From NCBI RefSeq assembly GCF_030028105.1, contig NC_092400.1, positions 20,274,001 to 20,338,000 of the forward strand: a stretch of DNA of 64,000 nt, given 5' to 3'. Both the position numbers and the translations under genes were made by a program. Under the pieces are notes generated by a model that saw only the letters and a list, made by a program, of their open reading frames with translations, was not told where the DNA came from and did no database searches. The DNA is from Mobula birostris (Eukaryota). This document shows, piece after piece, positions 14,191-53,973 of this stretch (position 1 is its first letter; each line of letters begins with the position of its first letter).

Positions 14191-14206
14191 TAATACTGTA
14201 CGGGTT

Positions 14207-15322
14207 TGGTAAATGCATTTAACTGTCATGTGGTGGAAAAGTATAGTGATTATACTCACATTTATACGGATGGTGCGAAGGAACCTGAAACAGGAGTGAC
14301 AGGGTTTGGGGTGGTTATACCAGCAAAAGAAATTGGAATCAGCAGAAGAACATCTGATAAGTTAGGGGTGTTTACAGTGGAGATGCTGGCAGTGTTGGTT
14401 GCGTTGCAATGGGTGCAGAAAGCCAGACAATTCAAAGCATTGATAAGCTCAGATTCATCCTCAGTTCTAGCAAGTTTAAGGTCTTTTCACACAAACAGTC
14501 GGCAAGATGTACTTTATGAAGTCCTTCAGTTAGTCGCAAGAATTGCAAATCAGGGAGGTCAGGTAAAATTTCAATGGGTTCCAGCACATGTAGGGGTGAA
14601 GGGGAATGAGAGGGTGGATGAGTTGGCAAAGAAGGCGTTAAAGAAAGAAAATATGGAAATGCACATTAGTATCAGTAAAGCAGAGGTTAAGTGTGTAATC
14701 TGGGGGAAAAAAATCAACCAAATGTGCAAGAAAGATGGGACAGGGAGGCATTTATATCAAATACAAAAAAGTGTTGCAGGTACTAGGGTAGGTAGTGGAA
14801 ACAGAAGAGAGAAAATTGTGTGGACTGGATTAAGGCTGGGACACTGTGCATTGAACAAAACATTGAAAATGATAGGGAAACACCAGACAGGAATGTGTGA
14901 GGAATGTCAGGAGGAGGAGTTAGTAGAACATGTAGTTCTGAGTTGCAGGAAGTATGGGATACAGAGAGAGATGATGAGAATTAAACTAAGGGAATTGGTG
15001 GTGCAGGAATTCACATTGAAAGGGTTGCTGGGTATGGGTGAGAGAGAGCACAGGTTAGGGTATTTTTAGCTTTCTTAAGGGTTACAGGGTTTTTTATAGG
15101 ATATGACGGATAAACCAGGAATAGGGTACTAGGATGGCCAAATATGGGAGGATAAAGTGTAGGTTAGGGTGTGTGTGTGTGTGCGTGTGTGTGTGAAGTA
15201 GATAGATAGATAGATATTGGGTGAGGGATTTAGAATGTACGTCTATTGCACACTCCGGAGCAGAAGGTGGCAGTAATGCACCATTAAACTGGGTGCCAAC
15301 CGCCGTAAAACGAGACAGACAG
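14207..15322 (+). mobile_element. I-clade (Nimb/I-like) LINE, 5'-truncated, with RNase H and CCHC domains; 15-bp TSD
   Basis: IYTDGA..E..SSDS..WVPAHVGVKGNERVD RNase H; CEEC..H....C knuckle; (GACA)n tail; TSD aatactgtacgggtt 14192-14206 / aatattgtacgggtt 15323-15337. Confidence 0.9.
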
Positions 15323-28000: not shown

Positions 28001-31000
28001 TCTTTCTAAACACTAGCAGCTGACACTTCAAATAGTCAGTGTGTTATTTTTGGGTAAGTTAAACTTCCAACCAGTATTCTTTGTTTACTTTCTGGTTGTA
28101 AGTGGGGACCAGTCTTCAGTGCTTAATTTAAATGGCAGTAGAGCTACTAGGACTTGATGTTTCAATCCCTATGGTAAGTTGGCACTCTCGATGTTGGCAG
28201 TGGGTTTGGAGTGGTGACAAGAAGGGAGGGTAGGTACGTCATCGGCGTCATCAGGTGGGCACCCTCCTTCTTTGACGTTTCGTTGATACGTCAAAAGCAA
28301 TAGTAGGTTTCAATTTAAAAGGACAGCTTTGCAAACAAGCACCATCTATACAGCACAGGATGCTGGCTCACAGCACGGGGCTTACTACTCAAGAGATGCA
28401 GTATAAGACAATGATGTTATGCTAATTGGGCTTGTATCAAACCAGACAATGCTGGCTAAGTTACTTAGTTTGAGGAAACTTGCAGACCAAATTGATAACA
28501 TCACTTAGCATATCAAAAGGCGGATCTGTTAATAGTTGGAAGGTTTATGTACTCAGGGAATCAGCTTTGCAGAATTAATTGTGGGTACCTGGGACTCTGT
28601 CTCCAGAAACTTTTAAACCACCTGTGTGAAAATGTATCTGAAAAAAAAATCACGAGTACGAAGTCACCCAAGTGGCAGAAAAACAGTATAAATAGACAGA
28701 GCAGTCCAGGCTTGTCAGGAATGGTCCAGTAACATCATGAATAGCAGAAAGATGGGGGCAAGGAGGACTATAATTCATTCCACTGTCTTGAATTCCCACA
28801 ACGGATGAATTGGTCGCCTGCAGCCCACTGTACCTGTGTTTTGGAACTCCTTTGTGTTTTTACAAATGGTTTGTAATTTAGAAAGCATTTATAAGATAGA
28901 AATTCTCTATGTTCTAAGTTTTGTTTCAATAATGTTAAAATTTAAACATAGTTCACTGAAAATAAATGAACCGTGTAAATGAACACAAGAGATTCTGCAG
29001 ATGCTGGAAATCCTGAGTAACACACACAACATGCTGGAGGAACTCAGCAGGTCAGGCAGCATCTATGGAAATGAATAAACAGTCGACACTTTGGGCCGAC
29101 ACTCTTCTTCAGGACTTACTGAATGACTTTGTTAGTTGGAAGCATCTCCTCTTTGGTAGCCAGGGGGTTCAAAAAGTGAGTAGTGGCAGCTAAACTCACC
29201 ATGGAAGATAAACAGGGAAGTGAACTAGATTTTGAACTTTGGGTAGTTACAGTACAACCTCCTTTTAATGAGAGTACCTGTGGTTATCTATATCTGGTAG
29301 GGTTTAAGGCCTTTGAGCTCAGAACTTCGCTGTCACTAACACAATACCATCACAAGGCTATGTTAATTGTTTAATGCACAATGATTAAGTACATTTGTAA
29401 ATCTCATATGTTTTTAAATGATCATTTTAAAGGTATTTTGCAAAGTCAACTTACCTGCCAGGACAGGATAGTCAAAGTATTCAGCAGCAGGGTCAAGATT
29501 TACCACTTGTACTGACCGATTCAACACCTCACAGTGCTGCTGCAGGGTAGAACAGTAAGTGCTCTGAAATTAAAAAACAACTTTTACACACCTCACGGTA
29601 AATACATCAATTAAATAACACAGAATTCTCAAAGAGACTGCAGATGCTGCGGGGGAAAAACATAAGATTGCTGAAGGATGTCAGCAGGTCTAGTTGTATC
29701 TGTAGGTGGGGAAGGAATCGTTGACCTTTCAGTTTGAAACCCTGAATCAGAATAGGTGCTGCATCTGTATCCAAAATGTTGACAATTCCCTTCCCCGCAC
29801 AAACTCTGCTTGACCCACTAACTGCCTCCAGCTGTTGAAGGCCTTTTTGCATTAAATTTTTCTATTTCTTGTCACATATGACTTGAAATTTGTGATATTG
29901 TGAAGGATTATTTCAGAAACATACCACATCAAAACCCATTGATAGTCAATCCAAAATTATACATTTAGGTTAACCATAAATTCCTATTAATTTTATAGAA
30001 TTATTTCCCCATGACTACATAATCACTGTCGCAACCTATCATACAGTACTGTAAAGAAAATACAGCTGCAAGAACAAGTTTGTGGACCCTTTGCAATGAC
30101 CTGGTTTTCTGCATTAATTACTCATAAAATGTAGTCTGATCTTCATCCAAGTCACAATAACAAACACAATCTGCCTCAAGAAATAACACACAAACAACTG
30201 TACTACTTCTTGTCAATACTGAGTACTCTATTTAAACAATCACGGTTCAGGTTCTCTGAATCTCTGGGGTAATGCTTTCTACAAAAGCTATTTGGAGTCA
30301 GGCGTTCCAATCAATGAGATGAGATTGGAGATGTGGGATGTAGAGGTGCCCTGCCCTATATAAAAAAAGAAAGTCAGATTATTGACGGAGCCTGTTCCTC
30401 TTGAGAAAGATTTGTTTATGTGCACCATGTCTTGATCAAAACAACTTTCAGAGGACCTTAGAAGAATTGTAGAGATGCATGAAGCTGGAAAAGGCTACAA
30501 AAGCATTTCTAAAGACCTGAGTGTTCATCAGTCCACTGTAAGAGAAATTGTCTACAAATGGAGGAAATTTAGTACTGTTGCTACTCTCCCAAGGAGTGGG
30601 CGTCCTGCAGAGATGACACCAAGAGCACAATGTGCAATGCTGAAGGAGGTGACAAAGAACCCAAAGGTAACAGCAAAAGACCTGCAGAAATCTCTAGAAC
30701 TTGCTAAAGTCTCTGTTCATGTCTCCACTAGAAGAAAATCACTGAACAGGAATGGTGCTCGTGGAAGGACACCAAGGTGGAAACCACTTCTCTCCAAAAA
30801 AAAACACCAATGCTGCACTTCTCAAGCTTACAAAAGACTACCTGGATGTTCCACAACACTTCTGGGACGATGTTCTGTGGACAGCTGAGACAAAAGTTGA
30901 ACCTTTTGGCAGAAATGCACACCACTATGTTTGGAGGATAAAGGGCACTGCACACCAACACCAAAACCTCATCCCAACTGTGAAGCATGGTGGAAGGAGC

Positions 31001-32623
31001 ATCATGGCTTGGGGCTGCTCTGCTACCTCAGGGCCTGGACAGCTTGCAGTCGTTGAGGAAACAATGAATTTAAAATTGTATCAAGACACTTTTACAGGAG
31101 AATGTCAGGATAGCAGTCTGTCAGCTGAAGCTTAATGGAAGTTGGTTGATGCAACAACACAATGATCCAAAACACAAGGGTAACTCAACAACAGAATGGT
31201 TTAAAAAGAAGAAAATTTGCATTTTGGGATGGCCAAGTCAGAGCCCAGACCTTAACCCAATTGAGATGCTGTGGCATGACTTCATGCAAGGCATCCCAGA
31301 AATATTGATGAACTGAAACAGTTCTATATGGAGGAATGGTCTAAAATTCCTCCTCACCATTCTGATCAGCAGCTACAGGAAACATTTGGTAGAGGTTATT
31401 GCTGCCAAAGGAGGTTCCACTAGTTATTAAATACAAAGGCTGTGAATGATTAAACAAGGTGTTCAATAAAGACATGAAAAGTAGAATTATTTGTGCATTA
31501 TTAGTTTAGGCAGATTGTGTTTGTCTATTATTGTGACTAGATGAAGAACAAACCACATTTTATGAGTAATTAATGCAGAAAAGCAGGTCATTGCAAAAGG
31601 TTCAGAAACTTGCAACTGTACATCAACAGATGTAGTGTAATGGTTAGCACAGTGCTTTACAGTACAGGTGACCTGGGTTCAATTCCCACTGCTGCCTGTA
31701 AGGAGTACGTTCTCCCCGTGACCACAGGGGTTTCCCCTGGGTGCTCTAGTTTCCTCCCACAGCCCAAAGACGTGCCAGTTGGTAGGTTACTTGGTCATTA
31801 TAAATTCTCCCGTGATTAGGCTAGGGTTAAATCAGGGGATTGCTGGGCAGTGTCGCTCGAAGGGCCTATTCTGTGCTGTATCTCAACAAATAAATAAATG
31901 CTTGTTATAACTTAAAGTACAAAAAGACTTTATCAAGTATTTCAAATTAAGCAGCAAAAAAAATGAAATATGCATTAAGATGTCAAAACTTTTGTACAAA
32001 AAATGGTATTCTTGGAAGACTAATGTAAATCCAGCCACAAAATTTTGTCCATGAGCTGAACCTTTTGTTATTATTGATCTATAGAGTGGACCAAGAATAA
32101 ATGAAAATTAAGAAGTGGTTTTAGGTTCCCTGTTAATAAAAAGTTGAGCATTTTTTTTAAATTATAAGGGATCTAATTAGAAGATTGCTGTTTGATACCC
32201 TGGGGAATGAAATGAATCACCAATAAAGGTTAACAGAAAGGTTAAAATACATTTCTTAATGGCGCTGTGAAATACGAAATGCTTTGAGTCAAGGACCATT
32301 GCATCTTTAATGGCTCTTTGCTGCATAAATGCTACAGTCTGAGTCTGAAGCCTCGAGGAATTATCTGCATCTCAAACATCATTAAATCCACAACAGAATA
32401 ACTGGAAAAAGGTTTGTTTTTGTACTGGGTTGGTAGTACTTGAACAAAAGCACGAGGGAAGGTCCAGTTCACAGCGAATTCAGGCCCAACTCCTCCACTC
32501 AACTTTGGGGAGCTGCGTGTTTGAATATCCACTCTCCACGAAAGTGCGCCATTTGCCGGCGGAGTCGGTAAGTACCTTTCCACTGCCGGCAGGCCCCATC
32601 ACGAGCTGGGCGTATCGAGGCAT
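18944..32623 (-). CDS. GPN3: GPN-loop GTPase 3, 8 coding exons, 286 aa: join complement(32576-32623,29455-29563,27120-27287,26232-26356,24993-25108,21702-21798,20631-20759,18944-19012)
   Basis: P-loop GPAGSGKST, NLDPA, GPNGG loop, DCPGQIE and TKMD motifs; GT-AG introns; 861 nt total with consistent phases. Confidence 0.97.
19245..19590 (+). mobile_element. CR1 (HER1-like) LINE 3' fragment
   Basis: Typical CR1 3' end gggccgaagggcctgtattgtgctgt followed by a (TTCTA)-like tail. Confidence 0.82.
20085..20565 (-). mobile_element. Penelope-like 3' fragment with a nested tRNA-SINE (20220-20462)
   Basis: tgctggaggaattcagcaggtcaggcagcatc end; degenerate hammerhead rc CTGATGAAG; purine-rich tract resumes after the SINE. 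Confidence 0.7.
20631..20759 (-). CDS. GPN3: GPN3 exon 7
   Basis: [43 protein letters not shown]. Confidence 0.96.
21150..21340 (-). repeat. LINE 3'UTR fragment (Rex-like family; also 33455-33610, 33850-34060, 47210-47440)
   Basis: shared aagttcaaagt...ccctgagattcatttt motif. Confidence 0.6.
21702..21798 (-). CDS. GPN3: GPN3 exon 6
   Basis: [32 protein letters not shown]. Confidence 0.96.
23440..24465 (-). mobile_element. CR1 LINE 3' portion (degenerate RT)
   Basis: [42 protein letters not shown]. Confidence 0.9.
24720..24884 (+). mobile_element. RTE-derived short element (5' piece joined to 3' end)
   Basis: ggacggtcccaagcc motif and (TAAG)n tail. Confidence 0.45.
24895..24970 (-). mobile_element. 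PLE terminal fragment about 20 nt from the GPN3 exon 5 donor
   Basis: aaacacgagaaaatctgcagacgctggaaat...tgctggaggaactcagc. Confidence 0.7.
24993..25108 (-). CDS. GPN3: GPN3 exon 5
   Basis: [38 protein letters not shown]. Confidence 0.96.
25325..25885 (-). mobile_element. Second I/Nimb-like LINE 3' fragment
   Basis: shares the 17-mer GGTGGCAGTAATGCACC with the 14.2 kb element; rc encodes a Cys/His knuckle remnant. Confidence 0.7.
26232..26356 (-). CDS. GPN3: GPN3 exon 4
   Basis: [42 protein letters not shown]. Confidence 0.97.
26540..26790 (+). mobile_element. RTE-clade LINE remnant
   Basis: LRWAGH motif and downstream KAxLKK remnant. Confidence 0.5.
27120..27287 (-). CDS. GPN3: GPN3 exon 3
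   Basis: [32 protein letters not shown]...ILFDCP. Confidence 0.97.
28981..29117 (-). mobile_element. PLE terminal fragment with degenerate hammerhead
   Basis: rc agtcCTGAAGAagagtgtcggcccaaagtGTCgactg. Confidence 0.75.
29455..29563 (-). CDS. GPN3: GPN3 exon 2
   Basis: [36 protein letters not shown]. Confidence 0.96.
29630..29840. mobile_element. Old fold-back PLE-derived element
   Basis: minus-strand PLE end through a decayed hammerhead, followed by an inverted plus-strand copy. Confidence 0.55.
30063..31618 (+). mobile_element. Full-length but inactive Tc1/mariner DNA transposon
   Basis: TA TSDs at 30061-62 and 31619-20; long imperfect TIRs; transposase with HTH GYKSISK and GRP, WTxETK, NDPKH and SPDLNPIE motifs, plus frameshifts and stops. 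Confidence 0.93.
31631..31898 (+). mobile_element. HE1-like V-SINE
   Basis: A/B boxes (GGTTCAATTCC), V-domain gtttcctcccacagcccaaagac, (TAAA)n tail. Confidence 0.85.
32576..32623 (-). CDS. GPN3: GPN3 exon 1
   Basis: [16 protein letters not shown] followed by gtact donor. Confidence 0.96.
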
Positions 32624-34169: not shown

Positions 34170-34935
34170 AACAGGAGGTCCCTCTTGGTAGACCATTTCG
34201 ACGAGCACCTTCACTCCATCCGCCACAAAAAGTGGGATCTCTCGGTGGCCACCTATTTCCATTCTAATTCCCATTCCCATTCTGGTCCATGGCCTCCTCT
34301 GGTGCCACAACGAGGCCACACTCAGGTTGGAGGAGCAACACCTTATATTCCAAACAAGAGAAAGTCTGCAGATGCTAGAAATTCAAGCAACACACACAAA
34401 ATGCCAGAGGAGCTCAGCAGGCCAGGCAGCATCTATGGTAAAAAGTCCATGGATGCTGCCTGGCCTGCTGAGTTCCTCCAGCATTTCGTATGTGTTACCA
34501 TATATTCTATGTGGGTAACCTCCAATCTGATGGCATGAACATCGATTTCTCAAACTTCCAGTAATTGTCACCCCCTTCACCATTCCTCATTCCTGTTTCC
34601 CTCTCTCACCTTATCTCTTTACCTGCCCATCACCTCCCTCTGGTGCTCCTCCCCGTTTTCTTTCTCCCACAGCCTTCTGTCCTCTCCTATCAGATTCCCC
34701 TTTCTCCAGCCCTTTATTTCTTTCACTGATCAACTTCTCAGCTCTTTACTTCACTCCTCCCCCTCTCCTGGTTTCACCCATCACCTACCACCTTGTACTT
34801 CTTCCTCCCCTCATTCCACCTTCTTACTCTGACTTCTCTCCTTCCTTTCCAGTCCTGATGAAGGCTCTCAGCCTGAAATGTTGACTGTTTCCTCTTTTCC
34901 AAAGATGCTACCTGGCCTGCTGAGTTGCTCTGGCA
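34170..34935 (+). mobile_element. Penelope-like element 3' part (GIY-YIG C-terminus, pyrimidine tract, hammerhead) with nested hairpin insertion
   Basis: DHFDEHLHSIR..DLSVATYFHS, LEEQHLIF and LQSDGMNIDF remnants; CTGATGA core at 34855. Confidence 0.82.
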
Positions 34936-34989
34936 CTATGCTGTGGTGAGAATAAAGTCACAGTATTTTCCCTCCCTTTCAACACAAGT

Positions 34990-45731: not shown

Positions 45732-45925
45732 GGTATATCACCTCACATCAATCTCAGAAATACTCTAATTATATCAGAAAGCAATCCCAGAAAGAAACTT
45801 GGAGGCAAAATAAGAGCAACAAGTCATCTACAGCTCAGAGCTCAGGGAAAGAGTCACCTATCTTGCAACCCGGAAAACCAATTTCTCTCCCCCTGCTGGG
45901 AGGTAGCAGTCAGAGGTCTGCATAG
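45732..45925 (+). CDS. FAM216A: FAM216A exon (reads to TAG at 45923-45925, or spliced at 45902)
   Basis: phase-1 acceptor tctcag; GYITSHQSQKYSNYIRKQSQKETWRQ resembles human GVLTHHRSRLSSRYSQKQHYPCTTWRHQ. Confidence 0.7.
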
Positions 45926-46574
45926 CTTACATTAATTTCATGTTTGTCTTTGCATCTTAATGAAAATTACAGCATAGAACCTGTGGACAATTAAGAACTA
46001 CAGGTTTTGAATATCTCAACTCTTTGTCTGATGTTCCAGATCTCAATTTCAACACTGCCGGCTGATTGAAAGGCAGAGTATCACCAAGTTGAGGCTTTTG
46101 CATGTAACACCCTCACATGCACCACGTTGTTAGTTGTTCAATTGATCTTGTAATCTATCTGATTGGTGGGGATTGAAGTATTTGTGAGTAGTATTGGCAT
46201 TTGGAATCCATGTCAACTCTTTATAGAACAAAACATACCTATTCTGCCTATCAATTAGTTACAGATGTGTAATTAAAAAGCTTTGTAATCAGAATTAGGG
46301 ACTATTTATTTTAGGATCTCTAGTTCTGACCAACCTGTTAATGAACTTTAAGTGTACTGCATATCCTCAACTGCTGGATCTTTGTCATAGAATTAACATG
46401 AGGTTCTATTAATCCATCTGAGAAAAAATTAACAATATCATTATTGTTAAGGATATTAATTAGGACAGCCACCCCATTACAGCATCACTGTTCCTCCTAA
46501 GGCAAACTACTACATGATTCTTACTCAAATAAACTCCAGGCAGAGAAATTGTGATTTAGTGAGTTTATGAAGAT

Positions 46575-47108
46575 AGGTGGAGGGGCAGTTAGTGTTGAGG
46601 GAGAAGGGAGTTTGCAAAAGGACAGACAGATTAAGAGAATGGGCAAAGAAGTGGCAGGTGGAATGTAAAGGAAGGCAGTATATCATAATGCACTTTGGTA
46701 GAAGGAATAAAGGTGTGGACTATTTTCAAAACAGGGAGAAAATTCAGACATCAGAGGTGCAAAGAGGTTTGAGAGTCCTCCTGCAGGATTTCCTAAAGGT
46801 TAACTTGCACATTCAGTCAGTGGTAAGGAAGGTAAATGCAATTTTAGCCTTCATGCCAAGAGAATGAGAATATAAAAGCAAGGTTGGTCAGAGGGTGGTG
46901 AATCTGTGGAATTCATTGCCACAGACAACTGTGTAGGCCAAGTCTTTGGGTATATTTAAAACAGAGGTTAATTGATTCTTGGTTGGTAAGAATGTCAAAG
47001 GTTATGGGGAGAAGGCAGTTGAGAGGGATAATTAATCATCCATGATTAAATGGCAGCAGACTTGATGGGCCAAATGGCCTAATTCTACTCCTACGTCTTA
47101 TGGTCTAT
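46575..47108 (+). mobile_element. CR1 LINE fragment
   Basis: DRLREWAKKWQVE..MHFGRRN; 3' end gggccaaatggcctaattct. Confidence 0.82.
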
Positions 47109-48416
47109 ATTGTGAAGAAACAAGAAGTCATGAAAAGTCAGGTAATGTTATATTTAAAAGAACTCACAAATTTTTATGTACATTTAATCGGCAAGTAAAG
47201 AGGAAAGTACAAAGTTCAAAGTAAATTTATTATCAAAGTACATATGCTGCTTTATACTACCCTGAGATTCATTTTCTTGCAGGCATTTACATGGAAAAAG
47301 AATACAATAGGATTTCATGGAAAAACTATACATAAACAAAGACGGACAAACAACCAAAGTGCAAAAGATGACAAACGGCAAATTAAAAAAATACTTGAGT
47401 TGTGAAGTGTCCTTGAAAATGTGTCTGGAGGTTGTAGAATTAGATTGCACCTGTAATATTAAGATATTAAGGTGGTCCCTGAGATTGACAGAATTTACTT
47501 CTATTCCAGATGGATTCAGACATGACGCTCATGGCCGATGAGAGCCACTCATTTTACAACACCTGAGACAACAGACGCTCCAGTAGATAGGTGGTAGTTT
47601 CCTGAGATAGTGCCCTCCTTTCACTGTTTACACCGGCTTCTCTGTGTATGGAAGAGGTTCTTAGTAACATCCTGTACATTCTTTCTCCTGTTTTGTGAGT
47701 CTGGTATTAGATGGGCAACTTAGCTTATCCAATCAAGCCAACAGTGCAATTCAGGACTCGATGCAGGTTATCCCACTGAATTTGGAGCATTTTACAGCAG
47801 TAATGAATTTTATGGTGCCGTATTTGCTAATGCAAGAATCAAAAGCTGACAGGAAGGCAGAGGTGCCTCAAGCTTTGCGCTGAGTTGATGTCTTGATCTC
47901 AGTTTCCAAAGGCTTAACAGTCACTAGATTTTGTCAAGATTCTACTTTATTGAGATAGTAAAACCAAACTATTCAAAATGAGTGGATCGCTGCACAACAC
48001 GTTACATGAATGCAAGGGCACCCTTCAGTGTGGTAAAGTTCTATGTGTTTCTGGTACTGTCATCACGGATCATACCTATAAAGGCTAGAGCATTTTGATT
48101 TTTCAGAAATACACAAGATATGGTGTAACAGAAATAAAGGAGTTGCATTGTTTCAAAGTTACAGGTTGTATTTTGGAACTTCAGCCATGGTTAAAGCAAC
48201 TAAGATCAGGTCCAAATGACATTTGAAAATGTAAGTAATCACTTAGTGCAAATGCAGTTATGTGAAAAGGTAAAAAAAAAAGTCCGAAATGGGTGATGCA
48301 TGCTAGATAGAAGCAGAAAATTCCCTCAAATCTGCCACATACGATGAAGTAATTTGCTTCAATGTATGTAGCAACCTGTCCAAATGGCTGACAAATCAAC
48401 ATACATGCGCTCGCAC

Positions 48417-48450
48417 TCGCTCTCTCGCGCGCGCGCACACACACACACAC
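48417..48450. repeat. Compound microsatellite (CT)n(CG)n(CA)n
   Basis: directly visible; alternating purine-pyrimidine tract. Confidence 0.85.
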
Positions 48451-49746
48451 GAACTAACATTAGTCAGAAGTTAATCCAAGTTGTCATTGCATCCCAAGTT
48501 TTTAAAAAATCAGCGTACAAATATGCCTTAGTTATTGCTTCCTTACCAGTACAAAACAGAAAAAAAGGGCTATCTGCTAATACATAGAGGTATATTAGTA
48601 CAAGTAGAAGGGTGGGGGAAGAGGAAGGTTACTGAACTGACTCGGGATTAATTTTCTAAAAGTAGTTAAAAATAATGGGTCATTTTTCAGTCCCTAGCAA
48701 AACATTCAACCGATATTGAAACACTTTAAAACCACAATCAACATCTAGGATATTCTCAACTGTAATGATTGACAGTACCTAGCATCTTAAAGAAATTCTC
48801 GCTTCCCACAAAACTTCCTGCAAAAGTTGGTAGCTAACAGTTCGTGAGTCTGAAGGTTTGTGTGGCAGAAATTATGCATTAATGTGGGGCTTCTCACTCT
48901 TTCTTTTCTCTTAAATTCAGTTCTCAGCTGGATGGTTATTGAACTAGGAACAGCTAAATATCAGTGAAGAAAAGTAGGAAAATTAAGATTATTTAACAGA
49001 TTTGTTCTTCATTGGTCCTGGTTGGTATCACTGCCAATCACCATTTTATCAAGTTCACACTTAGTTCTTGTAATAAATGTATTCTTTTAAACTGGACAAA
49101 ATGTTATATTTTTATTACGTGCAGTTTGAATGTATGCATCTATGGAAAAATTTAAACTGTAATATTTCTTTAGTCCTTACTGCCCAACTTAATGTTGATA
49201 CAACAGGAGATCAAGCAAATAACCAGATTCTCCATGTCATGTTTGAATAAATATTCCATGAATCAAAGATTGAAATGCAAAGAAAATTGAGTTCCCAAAG
49301 CATAACCTCAGAGCTCTTGAAACAGAAGTGACTTTTACATATTTGTACCAGAACATGAGTTTGTAAAGAAGTTGACTGGGAATATTTAAGACTGTACACT
49401 GCCAAACATCAGCAAATTCCAAGTTTCTGGTTACTTTTCCAACTAAATGCAGACCTAAATATAGGTCAGAAATGTCTGTTATGTGTAGATTTGGAGCCAT
49501 TTGAAGTACTACCAACAGAAACTCAGCAACATTCATAAATAGATGAGTTATTTCTTGATTGAACTGCTGAATTGATGTCTTAAAACAAAAAGGGCTGTCT
49601 GCAATTGACATTGATTTCACACACAATATGCATTTCAATAGCACTTTGTATATTTAAGATTTGTACATTAAGCTTCTCTATTCTCACACCTAATCTGTGC
49701 TACTACTTTGCTTTCATATGCAGTTTCAAAATCTATTTTCTTTCAG

Positions 49747-49808
49747 TGTTTAAGATGGAGAGTTCAAGATCAAATAAATTTACAAAAACAAATCTTCACA
49801 GAAAGTGA
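49747..49808 (+). CDS. Possible FAM216A terminal exon (VFKMESSRSNKFTKTNLHRK*)
   Basis: Strong acceptor tctattttctttcag, phase-compatible with a donor at 45902; no recognisable homology. Confidence 0.25.
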
Positions 49809-51039
49809 ACATTGGTGATCTTGGGTCTTCATCCAGCTTCTGATCAGCATCAAAATAGAATTCCAAATGGACACAAAGAAGAGGACTTGAAGCACAGTCA
49901 AGATGTAAACTACTCTCATAATCGGAGTGATTTCTTGTGATGCATTTTGGAGAACATCGCCTTGTTTTAATTCTAATTGTTACTGAACTTGAACTTTTCA
50001 ATCCCATATTAAATTTGGAAGATTTTACTGCCCCAAAAGATTTTTTTTTCCTATTTTGGCCCACTGATGAATTACAGCTCAGATTGTGAGTGATAATGAA
50101 AGAGAAATTAGTTAAGAAATACCCTGAATGTAACCATTAAGATTGTCACAAAACAATAAGCAATCAAGCTGTTTAATCAACAGGGGCAGCAAGTTTATTC
50201 AAATGCACAAACTCAAGCCCAGCATTCAAAGTTCATTTTGAATGCTCAAATATAAATTTTAAATTACCATAGTATAAAAGACATATTGATTTTCAAGATT
50301 ATTTTGTCATCAGATCCTCTCACGGTGCTTTCTACTGACAATTTTGTCCCCAGCAGGAATGAAGCTCATGGCAGCTTGCAGCTTCTTGACAGCCTCTACA
50401 ATATAGCATCCATCCTTTTAGGTTCAGAAACACCCAGCCCGAGGATGTCCTTGGGGCAGCCCACAAGCATCATACATGTTTCTAGAGTCAATACAGCACA
50501 CCCATCATGTTCAACAGAACCACACAAGGCAACAGCAAAATAAGCCCCTTTCCCACCCAACCATCCACTCCCTCACAGACAGACAGACCTGTAACCCCAG
50601 GACAGGCTGCCTTTGGGCTTCCTGTGTCTTAAGGTCAAGATGTTTGCACACAAATATTCCAATCTGTCCTAGTCGCTGGATTTTGATTTCAAATCAAAGT
50701 TCAAAGTAAGTTTTATTTTCAGAGTACATACATGTCACCACATACAACCCCGAGGTTCTTTTTCCTGTGGGCGTACTCAGCAAATCTATAGAACAGTAAA
50801 TATAACAAGATTCAGTGAAAGATCAAGTAGAGTGCAGAAGACAACAAACTGCAAATATAAATATAAATAAATAAATAGCAATAAATAAGGAGAGCATGAA
50901 AAAGCAATATAAACAGTCCTTAAAGTGAGATCATTGGTTGTGGCAACATCTCAATAGTCAGGTGAGTGTAGTTATCCTCTTTTGTTCTAGATCCTGACGG
51001 TTGAGGAGTAGTAACTTTTTTTGAACGCTTTTTGAACCT

Positions 51040-51460
51040 GGCCTCCAACCTGATGGCATGAACATTGACTTCTCTAACTTCTGCTAATGCCCCACCTCCC
51101 CCTCGTACCCCAGCCGGTATTTATTTATTTATATACACACATTCTCTCTCTCCTTTTTCTCCTTCTGACTATACCCCTTGCCCATCTTCTGGGCTTTTCC
51201 CCCCCTTCCCCCCGGACCTCCTGTCCCATGATCCTCTCATATCCCTTTTGCCAATCACCTGTCCAGCTCTTGGCTCCATCCCTCCCCCTCCTGTCTTCTC
51301 CTATCATTTTGGATCTCCCCCTCCCCCTTTCAAATCTCTTACTAGCTCTTCCTTCAGTTAGTCCTGATGAAGGGTCTCGGCCCGAAACGTCGACTGTACC
51401 TCTTTCTAGAGATGCTGCCTGGCCTGTTGCATTCACCAGCAACTTTGATGTGTGTTGCTT
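51040..51460 (+). mobile_element. Penelope-like element 3' fragment
   Basis: LQPDGMNIDFSNF end of GIY-YIG ORF, long pyrimidine tract, hammerhead motif. Confidence 0.82.
51360..51395 (+). ncRNA. Minimal type I hammerhead ribozyme motif (PLE-associated)
   Basis: AGUC-CUGAUGA-A-GGGU(CUCG)GCCC-GAAA-C-GUC/GACU: intact core, stems I and II, palindromic ACGU stem III. Confidence 0.75.
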
Positions 51461-51873
51461 GAGATCATGGAGGAGATGTTTTTGCCAATCTGAACTCACT
51501 GGTGTCTGCAAGTGAGGAAATCCTGGATCCAATTGCACAAGAGGTATTGAGGCCCAAGTCTTGGAGTTATTGATTAGTTTTCAGGGGATAATGGTATTCA
51601 ATGCTGAGCTATGATCGATAGAGCATCCTGATGTACGCATCTTTGCTGTCCAGATGTTCTAGGGTTGTGTGGGGAGTCAATGAGATGCCATCTGCTGTGG
51701 ACCTGTTGCTCCAGTAAATAATTGGAGTGGATCTAAGTCACCTCTCAGGCAGGAGCTGATATGCTTCATCATCAGCCACTCAAGACACTTCATCACTGTG
51801 GATGTAATTCCAACTGGCAGATACCATTCTCTTCTTGGGCACTGGTATGATTGAAGCAGGTGGGTACTACACA

Positions 51874-51980
51874 TTAACACGAGAAAGTGGTCCTAATGAA
51901 GAGCCTCGGCCTGAAACGTCGACTGTTTACTCTTTTCCATAGATATTGCCTGACCTGCCGAGTTCCTCCAGCATTTTACG
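51874..51980 (+). mobile_element. 107-bp PLE mini-insertion with mutated hammerhead, 12-bp TSD
   Basis: TSD gggtactacaca 51862-51873 / 51981-51992; CTAATGA...GAAACGTCGAC. Confidence 0.8.
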
Positions 51981-53466
51981 GGGTACTACACACTGCCGAA
52001 GCGAGAGGTTAAAGATATTTAGTGGATACACCAGCCAGTTGGTCAGCACAGGTCCTCAGCCAGGTACCCCTTCAGGTCCAGATGCTTTCCTTGGATTCAC
52101 CCTCCTGAAGCAAGCCCACGTCAGATGTGAGGATTTGCGATGGTTCCTCCATGATCTGACAGTCAAAGTGAGCATAAAAGGCATTGAGCTCATCTGGAAG
52201 CAAAACCCTGCTGTCCCCCAATTTGCTTGATTTAACTTGGTAGGAGGTTATTGCATTCAAACCCCACTACAGCTGTCGAGCATCCCTCATTGGTTCTAGT
52301 TTGGTCCGGAATCTCCACTTCACCTGTGAAATGGCTTTCCGGAGATCATACTTCCACCTCTTGCAGCATTCTTGATCTCCTGACTTGCCTCCGATTTGGC
52401 CCTCAGCAAATTTCGGATCTTATGGTTCATCCAGAGCTTCTGACTGGGGAAGATGCTGAATGATTTTTTGGGTCACACTCTTCTACAGCTGTTTTAATAG
52501 AGTCTGTTACAACCCTGGTGTCGTTGTGCAGGTCCTCTGATGAATGCTTGAACACGACCCAGTCCAAAGACTCAAGGCAATCCTGTAATTGTTCCTCAGC
52601 CTCCCATGACCAGAGTTGTCCTAATCTCTGGAGCTTTGCTTTTTAGGCTGTCTGTATGCAGGTAGGAGGACAGGGAAGTGATCCGAGTTACCAAAATGTG
52701 GTCTATGCAAGGAATGATAGGCATACCTTACCTTAGTGTAGCAGTGGTATAGTGTGATAGGACCTCCGGTGCTAAGTCTATACGCTGATGATAAATGGGC
52801 AGGGTTTTCTTCAAACAGGCCTGGTTGAAGCCTCCTGAATATAATTTGAAATGCATCGGGGACCGGTGATTTCTTGTCTGCAGTGTCGTGACTGCTTGCT
52901 TATAGTTGGTTGCTGGCGATACATAAACTGTGGTCACAATCACAGAGAAAAACTCTCAAAGCAAATAAAATGGTCTACATTTGATCAATACGAGTTCCAA
53001 GTTGGGGGAACACGAGTTTGACATAATTGCCATGTTGGATCACCAACAAGAACTGATAATAAAACACACGCCACTTCCCTTTGCCTTACCAGAATCTCAA
53101 ATATTGTAAGAGTAGACTAAAGAAGTTGTAGCGTACTTTTTTTTTCTTGAGTGACATCTTTTGAAGCTGTTCACTGTGCTCATGATTCAACAAGTTCCCC
53201 AATTCTCAAAAACCCTCAATAATAACCATTACAATAAAAGTATCAGAAAAGCAAAGCTCAGTCAACATCTTCAAAAGTTGGCATTCTTTAGTGTACTCTA
53301 TTTGAAATCAAAGATCAGTAACCAGGATATTTTGGAATACTTGTATTTCGAAGTGCGAAAAAAACAATTTTCTCAAGAATAAACAAATGCACAAGAGTAA
53401 ATAGAAATGTAATCGGATAAATCTTCATCAAGAAATCAGAATCAATATTAAGAGCTTGAGATTACA

Positions 53467-53472
53467 TTTATT
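53467..53472 (-). terminator. Candidate VPS29 polyadenylation signal
   Basis: tttatt on + strand about 390 nt after the stop codon. Confidence 0.55.
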
Positions 53473-53855
53473 TGTGGAATGGTAGACAAGTACTTTATAT
53501 GGACCAGCAGGGCTTCAAAAAGCAGAAACAAAAAAAAAACAATGGCTAAGAATGTCATGCATATTAATTACATGATCAACTACACCATTTCTGAAAGGAA
53601 ATATTTACAGGATTGAAAACCCTTTCATTCAAGAATGTGGCACCTTTTTCCATCAAGGATCTAAACTATCTTTATATCAGTTTGTTCAATAAAGTTCCTT
53701 TCATATTGCTGGAATAGTTAACAACTAGTTTTAGTGGAAATTAAACATACAATTCACACACATAATACAATTAATTTGATCAAGGTTGAAAAGGGAAATA
53801 AGATTGAAAGGGAAAAGGAGTGAAATTATACATATAAAAAACAGCTGACAAAAAA

Positions 53856-53973
53856 TTAGGACTTCTTGTATTCAATCCGTTCTACTTTTACATCATCAGA
53901 AATCAGCTGGTAAACATAAGTGACTACTGTGGATGCCTGAATGTCCATTAGTACGAATGAAGGGATGATATTT
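53856..53973 (-). CDS. VPS29: VPS29 exon 4 (stop TAA)
   Basis: [38 protein letters not shown]. Confidence 0.97.

What the first reader, a model, noticed from the sequence alone, without database searches (positions are those of the whole stretch)
51360..51395. Intact minimal hammerhead ribozyme in a Penelope-like element
Seen: AGUC CUGAUGA A GGGU-CUCG-GCCC GAAA C GUC GACU, i.e. both catalytic core boxes, a 4-bp stem II with tetraloop, and stem I (AGUC/GACU). Predicted cleavage is after GUC at 51391. Stem III is reduced to the palindrome ACGU. Established: PLEs carry minimal type I hammerheads thought to cleave as dimers. Inference: this copy may still be active, and it lies where FAM216A(+) read-through and VPS29(-) transcripts converge.
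Basis: partly seen in the sequence, partly recalled or inferred. Interest (0 to 1): 0.7.

Follow-up and report, generated by a model that had tools for sequence, protein, structure and literature searches.

The report
Leftover retrotransposon hammerhead, likely antisense
This is a real, sequence-intact copy of a known tiny self-cutting RNA motif at the end of a broken jumping gene, one of about 44,000 intact copies in this genome, and here it most likely does nothing because it probably lies backwards in the neighbouring gene's RNA.

Summary
Observation confirmed: 51360-51395 has both core boxes, 4-bp stems I and II, the ACGU palindrome and C17 at 51391. It ends a 422-nt, 5'-truncated Neptune-type Penelope-like element (51041-51462). 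The genome holds 860 identical 36-mers, 43,896 matches to a strict intact pattern and roughly 870,000 homologues. After insertion the core decays like its flank, so intactness reflects age. There is no compensatory covariation, but two source subfamilies differ at 1 of 30 functional positions against 16 of 76 flank positions, so selection acts on source elements. RNA contigs (strand not shown) from two studies stop at 50019-50033 on the FAM216A side. A second block runs from about 50185 into VPS29's last exon, so the motif is probably antisense in a long VPS29 3'UTR. In read-through context, folding predicts that an upstream pyrimidine tract sequesters the core. The nearest partner copy carries G5A. 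No sampled copy ends or starts at the cut site (0 of 37). Verdict: ordinary member of a class described in 2014, likely inert here. This scan has noted the family many times on other DNA. The one lead is a predicted position-dependent folding switch.

The parts
51360..51395 (+). Minimal type I hammerhead: stem I arms 51360-63 / 51392-95, core CUGAUGA 51364-70, bulged A 51371, stem II 51372-83 with CUCG loop, GAAA 51384-87, palindrome ACGU 51387-90, predicted cut after C 51391
   Evidence: Sequence; matches the min-HHR features of PMC4209133; 860 identical copies
51041..51462 (+). 5'-truncated Neptune-type Penelope-like element: last codons of the RT-GIY-YIG ORF (stop 51085-87), pyrimidine-rich pLTR, hammerhead, end at +98 from C3 without the 30-nt tail
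   Evidence: differs from the majority of 30 close alignments at 18 of 422 positions
51320..51359 (+). Pyrimidine tract predicted to pair with the core box and the 5' arm of stem II, blocking the hammerhead fold
   Evidence: Partition-function folding; prediction only
51890..51978 (+). Second, older-subfamily element end, 530 nt downstream, with G5A in the core and a broken stem II but an intact ACGUC/GACUG substrate strand
50183..53973 (-). VPS29 last exon (stop 53856-58; proximal AATAAA 53467-72) and a likely long 3'UTR running to a distal AATAAA at 50194-99, which would contain the motif in antisense
   Evidence: Spliced contigs 53973/56200 and 56435/59227 and a chain of locus-specific contigs; signals; strand of the long part inferred
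47283..50033 (+). FAM216A last exon (acceptors 47283 and 49747) ending just after ATTAAA 50008-13, about 1.33 kb before the motif
   Evidence: Contig ends 50029, 50028, 50019, 50033 in four runs of two studies; exon joins translated; weak Pfam FAM216B hit upstream

Best explanation
The motif is a sequence-intact minimal hammerhead at the 3' end of a 5'-truncated Neptune-type Penelope-like retroelement copy, one of about 44,000 intact copies, and at this locus it is most likely an inert passenger. Shown: anatomy, family, copy number, neutral decay of inserted copies, conservation between source subfamilies, and copy ends far beyond the cut site. Inferred: the ribozyme is kept by selection on transposing source elements, where it would cut only as a dimer and probably with the element's protein. 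The element RNA is reverse-transcribed uncut from two start sites about 65 and 100 nt downstream of the cut site. Here the mature transcript that covers it is probably the long VPS29 3'UTR, which carries the non-catalytic antisense strand. FAM216A mRNA probably ends 1.3 kb earlier, and any read-through would likely misfold the core.
For: Copy number. Family ORF up to 1014 aa with RVT_1 and GIY-YIG hits and a C-x4-C-xx-C linker. Neutral decay in 39 sampled copies: non-CpG core 5/348 vs flank 29/1247 (p=0.40), CpG functional 33/234 vs neutral 33/193 (p=0.42), 11 of 39 fully intact. Source-level conservation: 1 of 30 vs 16 of 76, p=0.036. Ends: 15 of 37 at +81..+99, 21 of 37 at +121..+136, 0 of 37 at the cut, matching the two initiation sites and uncut template reported for the anole element (PMC11167929). 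Transcript ends. No core box on the minus strand of the element. Folding: stem I probability about 0.6 from the motif front, 0.00 when embedded. Partner copy G5A.
Against: Contigs give no strand, no true ends and no level, so the VPS29 assignment is a weak hint by the tool's own standard; no DNA run was laid as a control, and one laid run (X2) is flagged as probably DNA though it shows the splice joins. A contig of depth 3.3 crosses the gap 50049-50204 in X1, so some read-through or DNA is present. Every catalytic base is intact, and family RNA is abundant, so trans-dimers are possible. G5A copies (351) are fewer than a G-to-A change at a neutral position (1,051); about a third of the listed latter come from one subfamily and the contexts differ, so this neither shows nor excludes selection on copies. 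The neutral-decay sample is small.
Confidence: 0.82

Rival explanations
1. The copy acts as a back-up terminator: FAM216A read-through RNA is cut here, in trans with another element RNA or in cis with the copy 530 nt downstream (then at 51920, on the partner's substrate strand), limiting overlap with VPS29 transcription.
For: Intact core, correct strand for FAM216A, 1.33 kb past its likely poly(A) site. The partner's substrate strand is intact. A contig of a related organism carries the 3' junction with no differences (X6, 51436-51537, 27 letters on the element side), so the insertion has been retained for some time.
Against: Stems are predicted not to form in context. The active dimer fold scores -16.7 kcal/mol against -30.5 for an inactive duplex. 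Published min-HHR activity is nil as monomer and low as dimer (PMC4209133), and absent without protein in the anole element (PMC11167929). Little sequence is seen past the FAM216A end. About 28% of young copies are intact anyway.
Confidence: 0.07
2. The motif is a catalytic relic even for the element: it is conserved because it overlaps a promoter, RNA 5' end or protein-binding site, not because it cleaves.
For: No compensatory covariation. No copy ends or starts at the cut, while 8 of 37 start at -10..0. Cleavage was not needed for insertion in vitro in the anole element (PMC11167929).
Against: What varies between subfamilies is what a hammerhead tolerates: loop letters, N7, G-C to G.U at 11.1, and the fifth stem I pair. 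Homologous motifs cleave in vitro (PMC4209133; PMC11167929).
Confidence: 0.1
3. Chance arrangement of short boxes or an assembly artefact.
For: Weak folding z-score; no Rfam hit.
Against: 0 hits in reversed controls; fixed place 280 nt behind the ORF stop in all long copies; both junction regions seen in independent contigs.
Confidence: 0.01

Closest known systems
Minimal hammerheads (min-HHR) in pLTRs of metazoan Penelope-like elements, Cervera and De la Pena 2014 (PMC4209133; parts 1-2 of 4 read)
   Same: Type I, core boxes, extra base between 9 and 10.1, G10.1-C11.1, palindromic 15.2-16.2 with no stem III, 4-5 bp stem I, mostly single dispersed copies, some as opposite-strand pairs 100-700 bp apart.
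   Different: Stem II is 4 bp rather than the 7-8 bp described for Schistosoma. Copy number is 43,896 strict-intact here against about 4,000 (coelacanth) and 9,000 (Xenopus) there. Sequence is uniform within young subfamilies. No cartilaginous fish is named in the parts read.
Neptune clade of EN+ Penelope-like elements (as summarised in Craig et al. 2021, PMC8557442; passages read)
   Same: Single RT-GIY-YIG ORF with C-terminal endonuclease, CX2-5CxxC linker, heavy 5' truncation, inverted partner copies, optional 30-40 nt tail at one end.
   Different: This copy keeps only the last 15 codons and has no inverted or tandem partner of its own. Clade was called from the linker, not from a tree; the linker is shared with Nematis.
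Poseidon element PAc of the green anole, Frangieh et al. 2024 (PMC11167929; parts 1-2 of 4 read)
   Same: Two 3' end classes about 30 nt apart downstream of the hammerhead; copies made from uncut RNA; no ends at the cut site.
   Different: Other clade; in PAc the ORF starts inside the hammerhead, which was not established for this family.
Non-LTR retrozymes of animals (PMC7229834, passages; bioRxiv 10.64898/2026.07.22.740005, part 1 of 5 and passages)
   Same: Type I hammerheads, very high copy number (up to 120,000 in axolotl), link to Penelope-like elements.
   Different: Retrozymes are tandem non-coding repeats; this is a single truncated end of a coding element.

Membership tests
Metazoan PLE min-HHR | Core boxes CUGANGA and GAAA with NUH cleavage triplet | tested here: met
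   CUGAUGA 51364-70, GAAA 51384-87, GUC 51389-91
Metazoan PLE min-HHR | Extra base before stem II and G10.1-C11.1 pair | tested here: met
   A51371; G51372-C51383; G.U in part of the family
Metazoan PLE min-HHR | No stem III; palindromic 15.1-16.1 | tested here: met
   ACGU 51387-90
Metazoan PLE min-HHR | Located in the pLTR of a Penelope-like element | tested here: met
   Same segment follows RT-GIY-YIG ORFs of 790-1014 aa in 5 of 5 long copies fetched
Metazoan PLE min-HHR | Compensatory changes in stems I and II | tested here: inconclusive
   Not above shuffles in 66 distinct rows (covariation 0.142 vs 0.153); double changes only 23 and 26 genome-wide at two pairs tested. Stems are invariant between subfamilies instead, so there is little variation to test.
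Metazoan PLE min-HHR | Mg2+-dependent cleavage as a dimer | not testable with these tools
   Needs an in vitro assay; contigs cannot show ends
Neptune-clade PLE | RT followed by C-terminal GIY-YIG in one ORF | tested here: met
   Family copy L123: RVT_1 E 1.6e-5, GIY-YIG E 0.0025, both below Pfam's curated cut-off; absent from the window copy by truncation
Neptune-clade PLE | CX2-5CxxC linker between RT and EN | tested here: met
   C-x4-C-xx-C before the GIY-YIG domain; feature shared with Nematis (PMC8557442)
Neptune-clade PLE | RT phylogeny groups with Neptune references | not tested
   No reference set of named PLE RTs was fetched
Non-LTR retrozyme | Tandem non-coding units, each with a hammerhead | tested here: not met
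   Single truncated end with ORF remnant; neighbour is a separate, different-subfamily fragment
Rfam hammerhead families | Covariance-model match | tested here: not met
   No hit at gathering score or up to E=10; expected for a motif without stem III

The most novel reading that the evidence does not exclude
The element carries a built-in positional switch. Its own pyrimidine tract pairs with the hammerhead core whenever the motif is embedded (3' pLTR, or any host transcript), and the motif folds only when the RNA begins at its front edge, where copy starts cluster. This would explain why the 3' copy stays uncut for reverse transcription and why a vertebrate genome tolerates more than 40,000 intact hammerheads.
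Probability: 0.3. Interest if true: 0.55.

Novelty: new member of a known kind. Interest (0 to 1): 0.2.

Why it matters
The locus itself matters little: it is one of tens of thousands of copies and is probably read backwards. The family is a useful test bed. The role of hammerheads in Penelope-like elements is still open (PMC8557442, PMC11167929), and this genome offers long open ORFs, several young subfamilies and large numbers for end-mapping. If the predicted upstream block is real, it gives a simple, directly testable reason why these ribozymes look weak in vitro and harmless in host RNA.

Tried and rejected
Rfam: no hammerhead match; only chance snoRNA hits. Covariation: not above shuffles (68 of 95 full-span sampled copies plus the window copy were aligned, leaving out 3 with deletions in the motif and the 24 lowest-scoring). 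Double changes at pair 10.2/11.2: 23, of which 17 A-U, the double-transition outcome. At pair 2.2/1.2: 26, of which 15 paired against 10.7 expected, p=0.04 uncorrected; far too few for an amplified variant. Fifth stem I pair as covariation: rejected, it is C.A in the UUCG subfamily. G5A versus a neutral G-to-A site (351 vs 1,051): confounded by a subfamily and by context. Sequencing runs: no RNA holder listed on record; the runs laid are guesses, with splice joins in their contigs. My first FAM216A exon joins were off by one to two bases and were corrected. One search filtered out copies ending near the cut, so ends were recounted without that filter. Lunse et al. (PMC5785218) is not held; it is known here only from its title and a review's sentence (PMC6765202, passages). 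Literature searches for hammerheads of cartilaginous-fish Penelope elements: one search found 0, one search found 1 review (listing only), one search found 1 genome paper (listing only), one search returned unrelated papers; one search found 0 for an alternative-structure switch. Subscription papers and supplements (for example alignments in PMC4209133) were not seen. Retrozyme, exonised ribozyme and trans-cleavage of the antisense strand were considered; the antisense strand offers only 3 bp of stem I and would simply form a long duplex.

Full report
Observation. The boxes alone are barely above chance in the window (12 against a mean of 6.07), the folding z-score is -0.61, and Rfam has no match. 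The full descriptor is far above chance: 21 hits in 77 usable 10-kb samples (78 fetched), 20 of them this family, and none in reversed sequence. It meets the features listed for minimal hammerheads of metazoan Penelope-like elements (PMC4209133, parts 1-2 of 4 read).

The carrier. The motif lies in a 422-nt fragment, 51041-51462, that matches many places at about 90%. Relatives that extend further upstream read into a GIY-YIG frame. Five long copies have open frames of 790-1014 aa ending in the same 15 codons that open the window fragment. The longest gives RVT_1 and GIY-YIG hits, both under the curated cut-offs, with a C-x4-C-xx-C linker, the mark of Neptune and Nematis elements (PMC8557442, passages). 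No tree was built. The genome is 4.0 Gb; that it is likely a ray is a recalled resemblance, echoed by earlier notes. The window copy keeps no RT or endonuclease and differs from the majority of 30 close alignments at 18 of 422 positions.

Copy number. The exact 36-mer occurs 860 times. A strict pattern that keeps all core bases and stems occurs 43,896 times, control 0. A profile finds 167 homologues in 770 kb, which extrapolates to about 870,000 (735,000-1,010,000), and a looser descriptor to about 110,000 (63,000-167,000). The window itself holds 10 profile hits. Published figures are about 4,000 and 9,000 min-HHRs for coelacanth and Xenopus (PMC4209133) and up to 120,000 retrozyme copies in axolotl (PMC7229834, passages).

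Is intactness meaningful? In 39 sampled copies of the window's subfamily, chosen by flank letters from 95 full-span hits, non-CpG core sites differ at 5/348 and the flank at 29/1247 (p=0.40). CpG sites inside the structure differ at 33/234 and neutral ones at 33/193 (p=0.42). Eleven of 39 copies are fully intact. So an intact copy is common and needs no local function. Covariation among copies is not above shuffles, and double changes at two pairs number only 23 and 26 genome-wide. Selection shows instead between sources. A second young subfamily with a UUCG loop (26 motifs from 20 chosen stretches) differs from the window's subfamily at 1 of 30 functional positions, a G-C to G.U change, and at 16 of 76 aligned flank positions plus 10 gap runs (p=0.036). 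This is one pairwise comparison.

How copies are made. Of 37 sampled copies that reach the motif, 15 end at +81..+99 from C3, 21 at +121..+136, one alignment stops at +32, and none ends or starts at the cut. The window copy ends at +98. Two end classes about 30 nt apart match the two reverse-transcription start sites and the optional tail of the anole element, where uncut RNA was the dominant template and the ribozyme cut only when protein was added (PMC11167929, parts 1-2 of 4). Eight of 37 copies start at -10..0 (7 of 17 starts within -100..+54 in the first count, p=9e-5). That agrees with earlier notes e1-10135628, e1-10285374 and e1-9551905.

Gene context. Pfam supports GPN3-like, FAM216-like (weak) and VPS29-like exons; the names rest on these hits plus recalled motifs and synteny. 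The one run search listed no holder on record as RNA, but contigs of the laid runs join VPS29 exons across introns. On the FAM216A side contigs stop at 50029, 50028, 50019 (study P1) and 50033 (study P2), just after ATTAAA at 50008. A second block starts at 50204, 50212, 50184 and 50183 in four of five runs (50447 in X3), beside a minus-strand AATAAA at 50194-99. In X1 it continues as locus-specific contigs of depth 75-111 on both sides of the element into VPS29's last exon, with one contig of depth 3.3 across the gap. No listed contig spans the element itself. The simplest reading is a long VPS29 3'UTR that holds the motif in antisense, where there is no core box, and a FAM216A end 1,335 nt before C3. 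Contigs show no strand or true ends and no DNA control was laid, so this is an inference.

Would read-through RNA cut? Folding gives stems I and II a probability of about 0.6 when the RNA starts at 51354-59 and 0.00-0.02 when 30 or more nt of native upstream sequence are present. Across copies, stem I falls below 0.1 in 27 of 28 CUCG-loop copies with native upstream and in 8 of 28 with shuffled upstream. In the UUCG subfamily the effect is weaker (median 0.93 without, 0.24 native, 0.50 shuffled; 22 copies), and 2 UCCG copies agree. Copies share ancestry, so this is three observations, all predictions. The active dimer fold scores -16.7 kcal/mol against -30.5 for an inactive duplex. The nearest same-strand copy, at 51890, has G5A and a broken stem II, so a cis dimer could at most cut that partner.

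Verdict. A real, ordinary member of a class described in 2014, carried by a dead fragment, kept intact by youth and chance, and probably read backwards at this locus (0.82). The scan has noted the family before: 366 findings in at least 20 genomes hold the search words. My searches found no paper on hammerheads of ray Penelope elements or on an upstream block, but subscription papers, Lunse et al. and supplements were not seen. The predicted positional switch is the only lead worth a bench test. Interest 0.2.

Noticed in passing
window 45902 to 47283 and 49747: FAM216A appears to use two last-exon acceptors, one at 47283 inside a repeat and one at 49747, giving different C-termini (stops at 47335 and 49808) and sharing the 3' end near 50030.
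   Followed up: partly
window 50183-53465: Likely long VPS29 3'UTR isoform beyond the proximal poly(A) signal, seen in two organisms, ending about 150 nt from the FAM216A 3' end and holding two element ends and a LINE-like repeat.
   Followed up: partly
L033, L036, L057, L091, L107: In 5 of 5 sampled inverted pairs with both ends scored, one arm ends near +95 and the other near +128, and the longer arm lacks the tail; L125 agrees, L110 is the reverse.
   Followed up: partly
L128-L147: A distinct young subfamily with UUCG loop and different flanks but the same core and stems; often in inverted pairs.
   Followed up: partly
window 50830-52960: Both element ends sit in an older minus-strand LINE-like repeat; in relative L103 about 700 nt lie between the two flanks of the 51041-51462 insertion, suggesting a target deletion. 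No target-site duplication was identified.
   Followed up: partly
window 34397-34940: Nested element pieces in a likely FAM216A intron: a short inverted pair of ends at 34397-34486 and a sense older copy with core boxes at 34855.
   Followed up: no
window 30436-31135: Broken frames resembling a Tc1/mariner transposase (recalled resemblance).
   Followed up: no
window 14194-15069: 291-aa open frame resembling the RNase H end of a LINE (recalled resemblance).
   Followed up: no
L080 near 6761 (+): A descriptor hit unrelated to this family, with a 5-bp stem II and 8-nt loop; may be another hammerhead family or chance.
   Followed up: no
L123 (G000:C11), L124 (G000:C7): Family copies with uninterrupted frames of 1014 and 922 aa, so the family is young.
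   Followed up: partly
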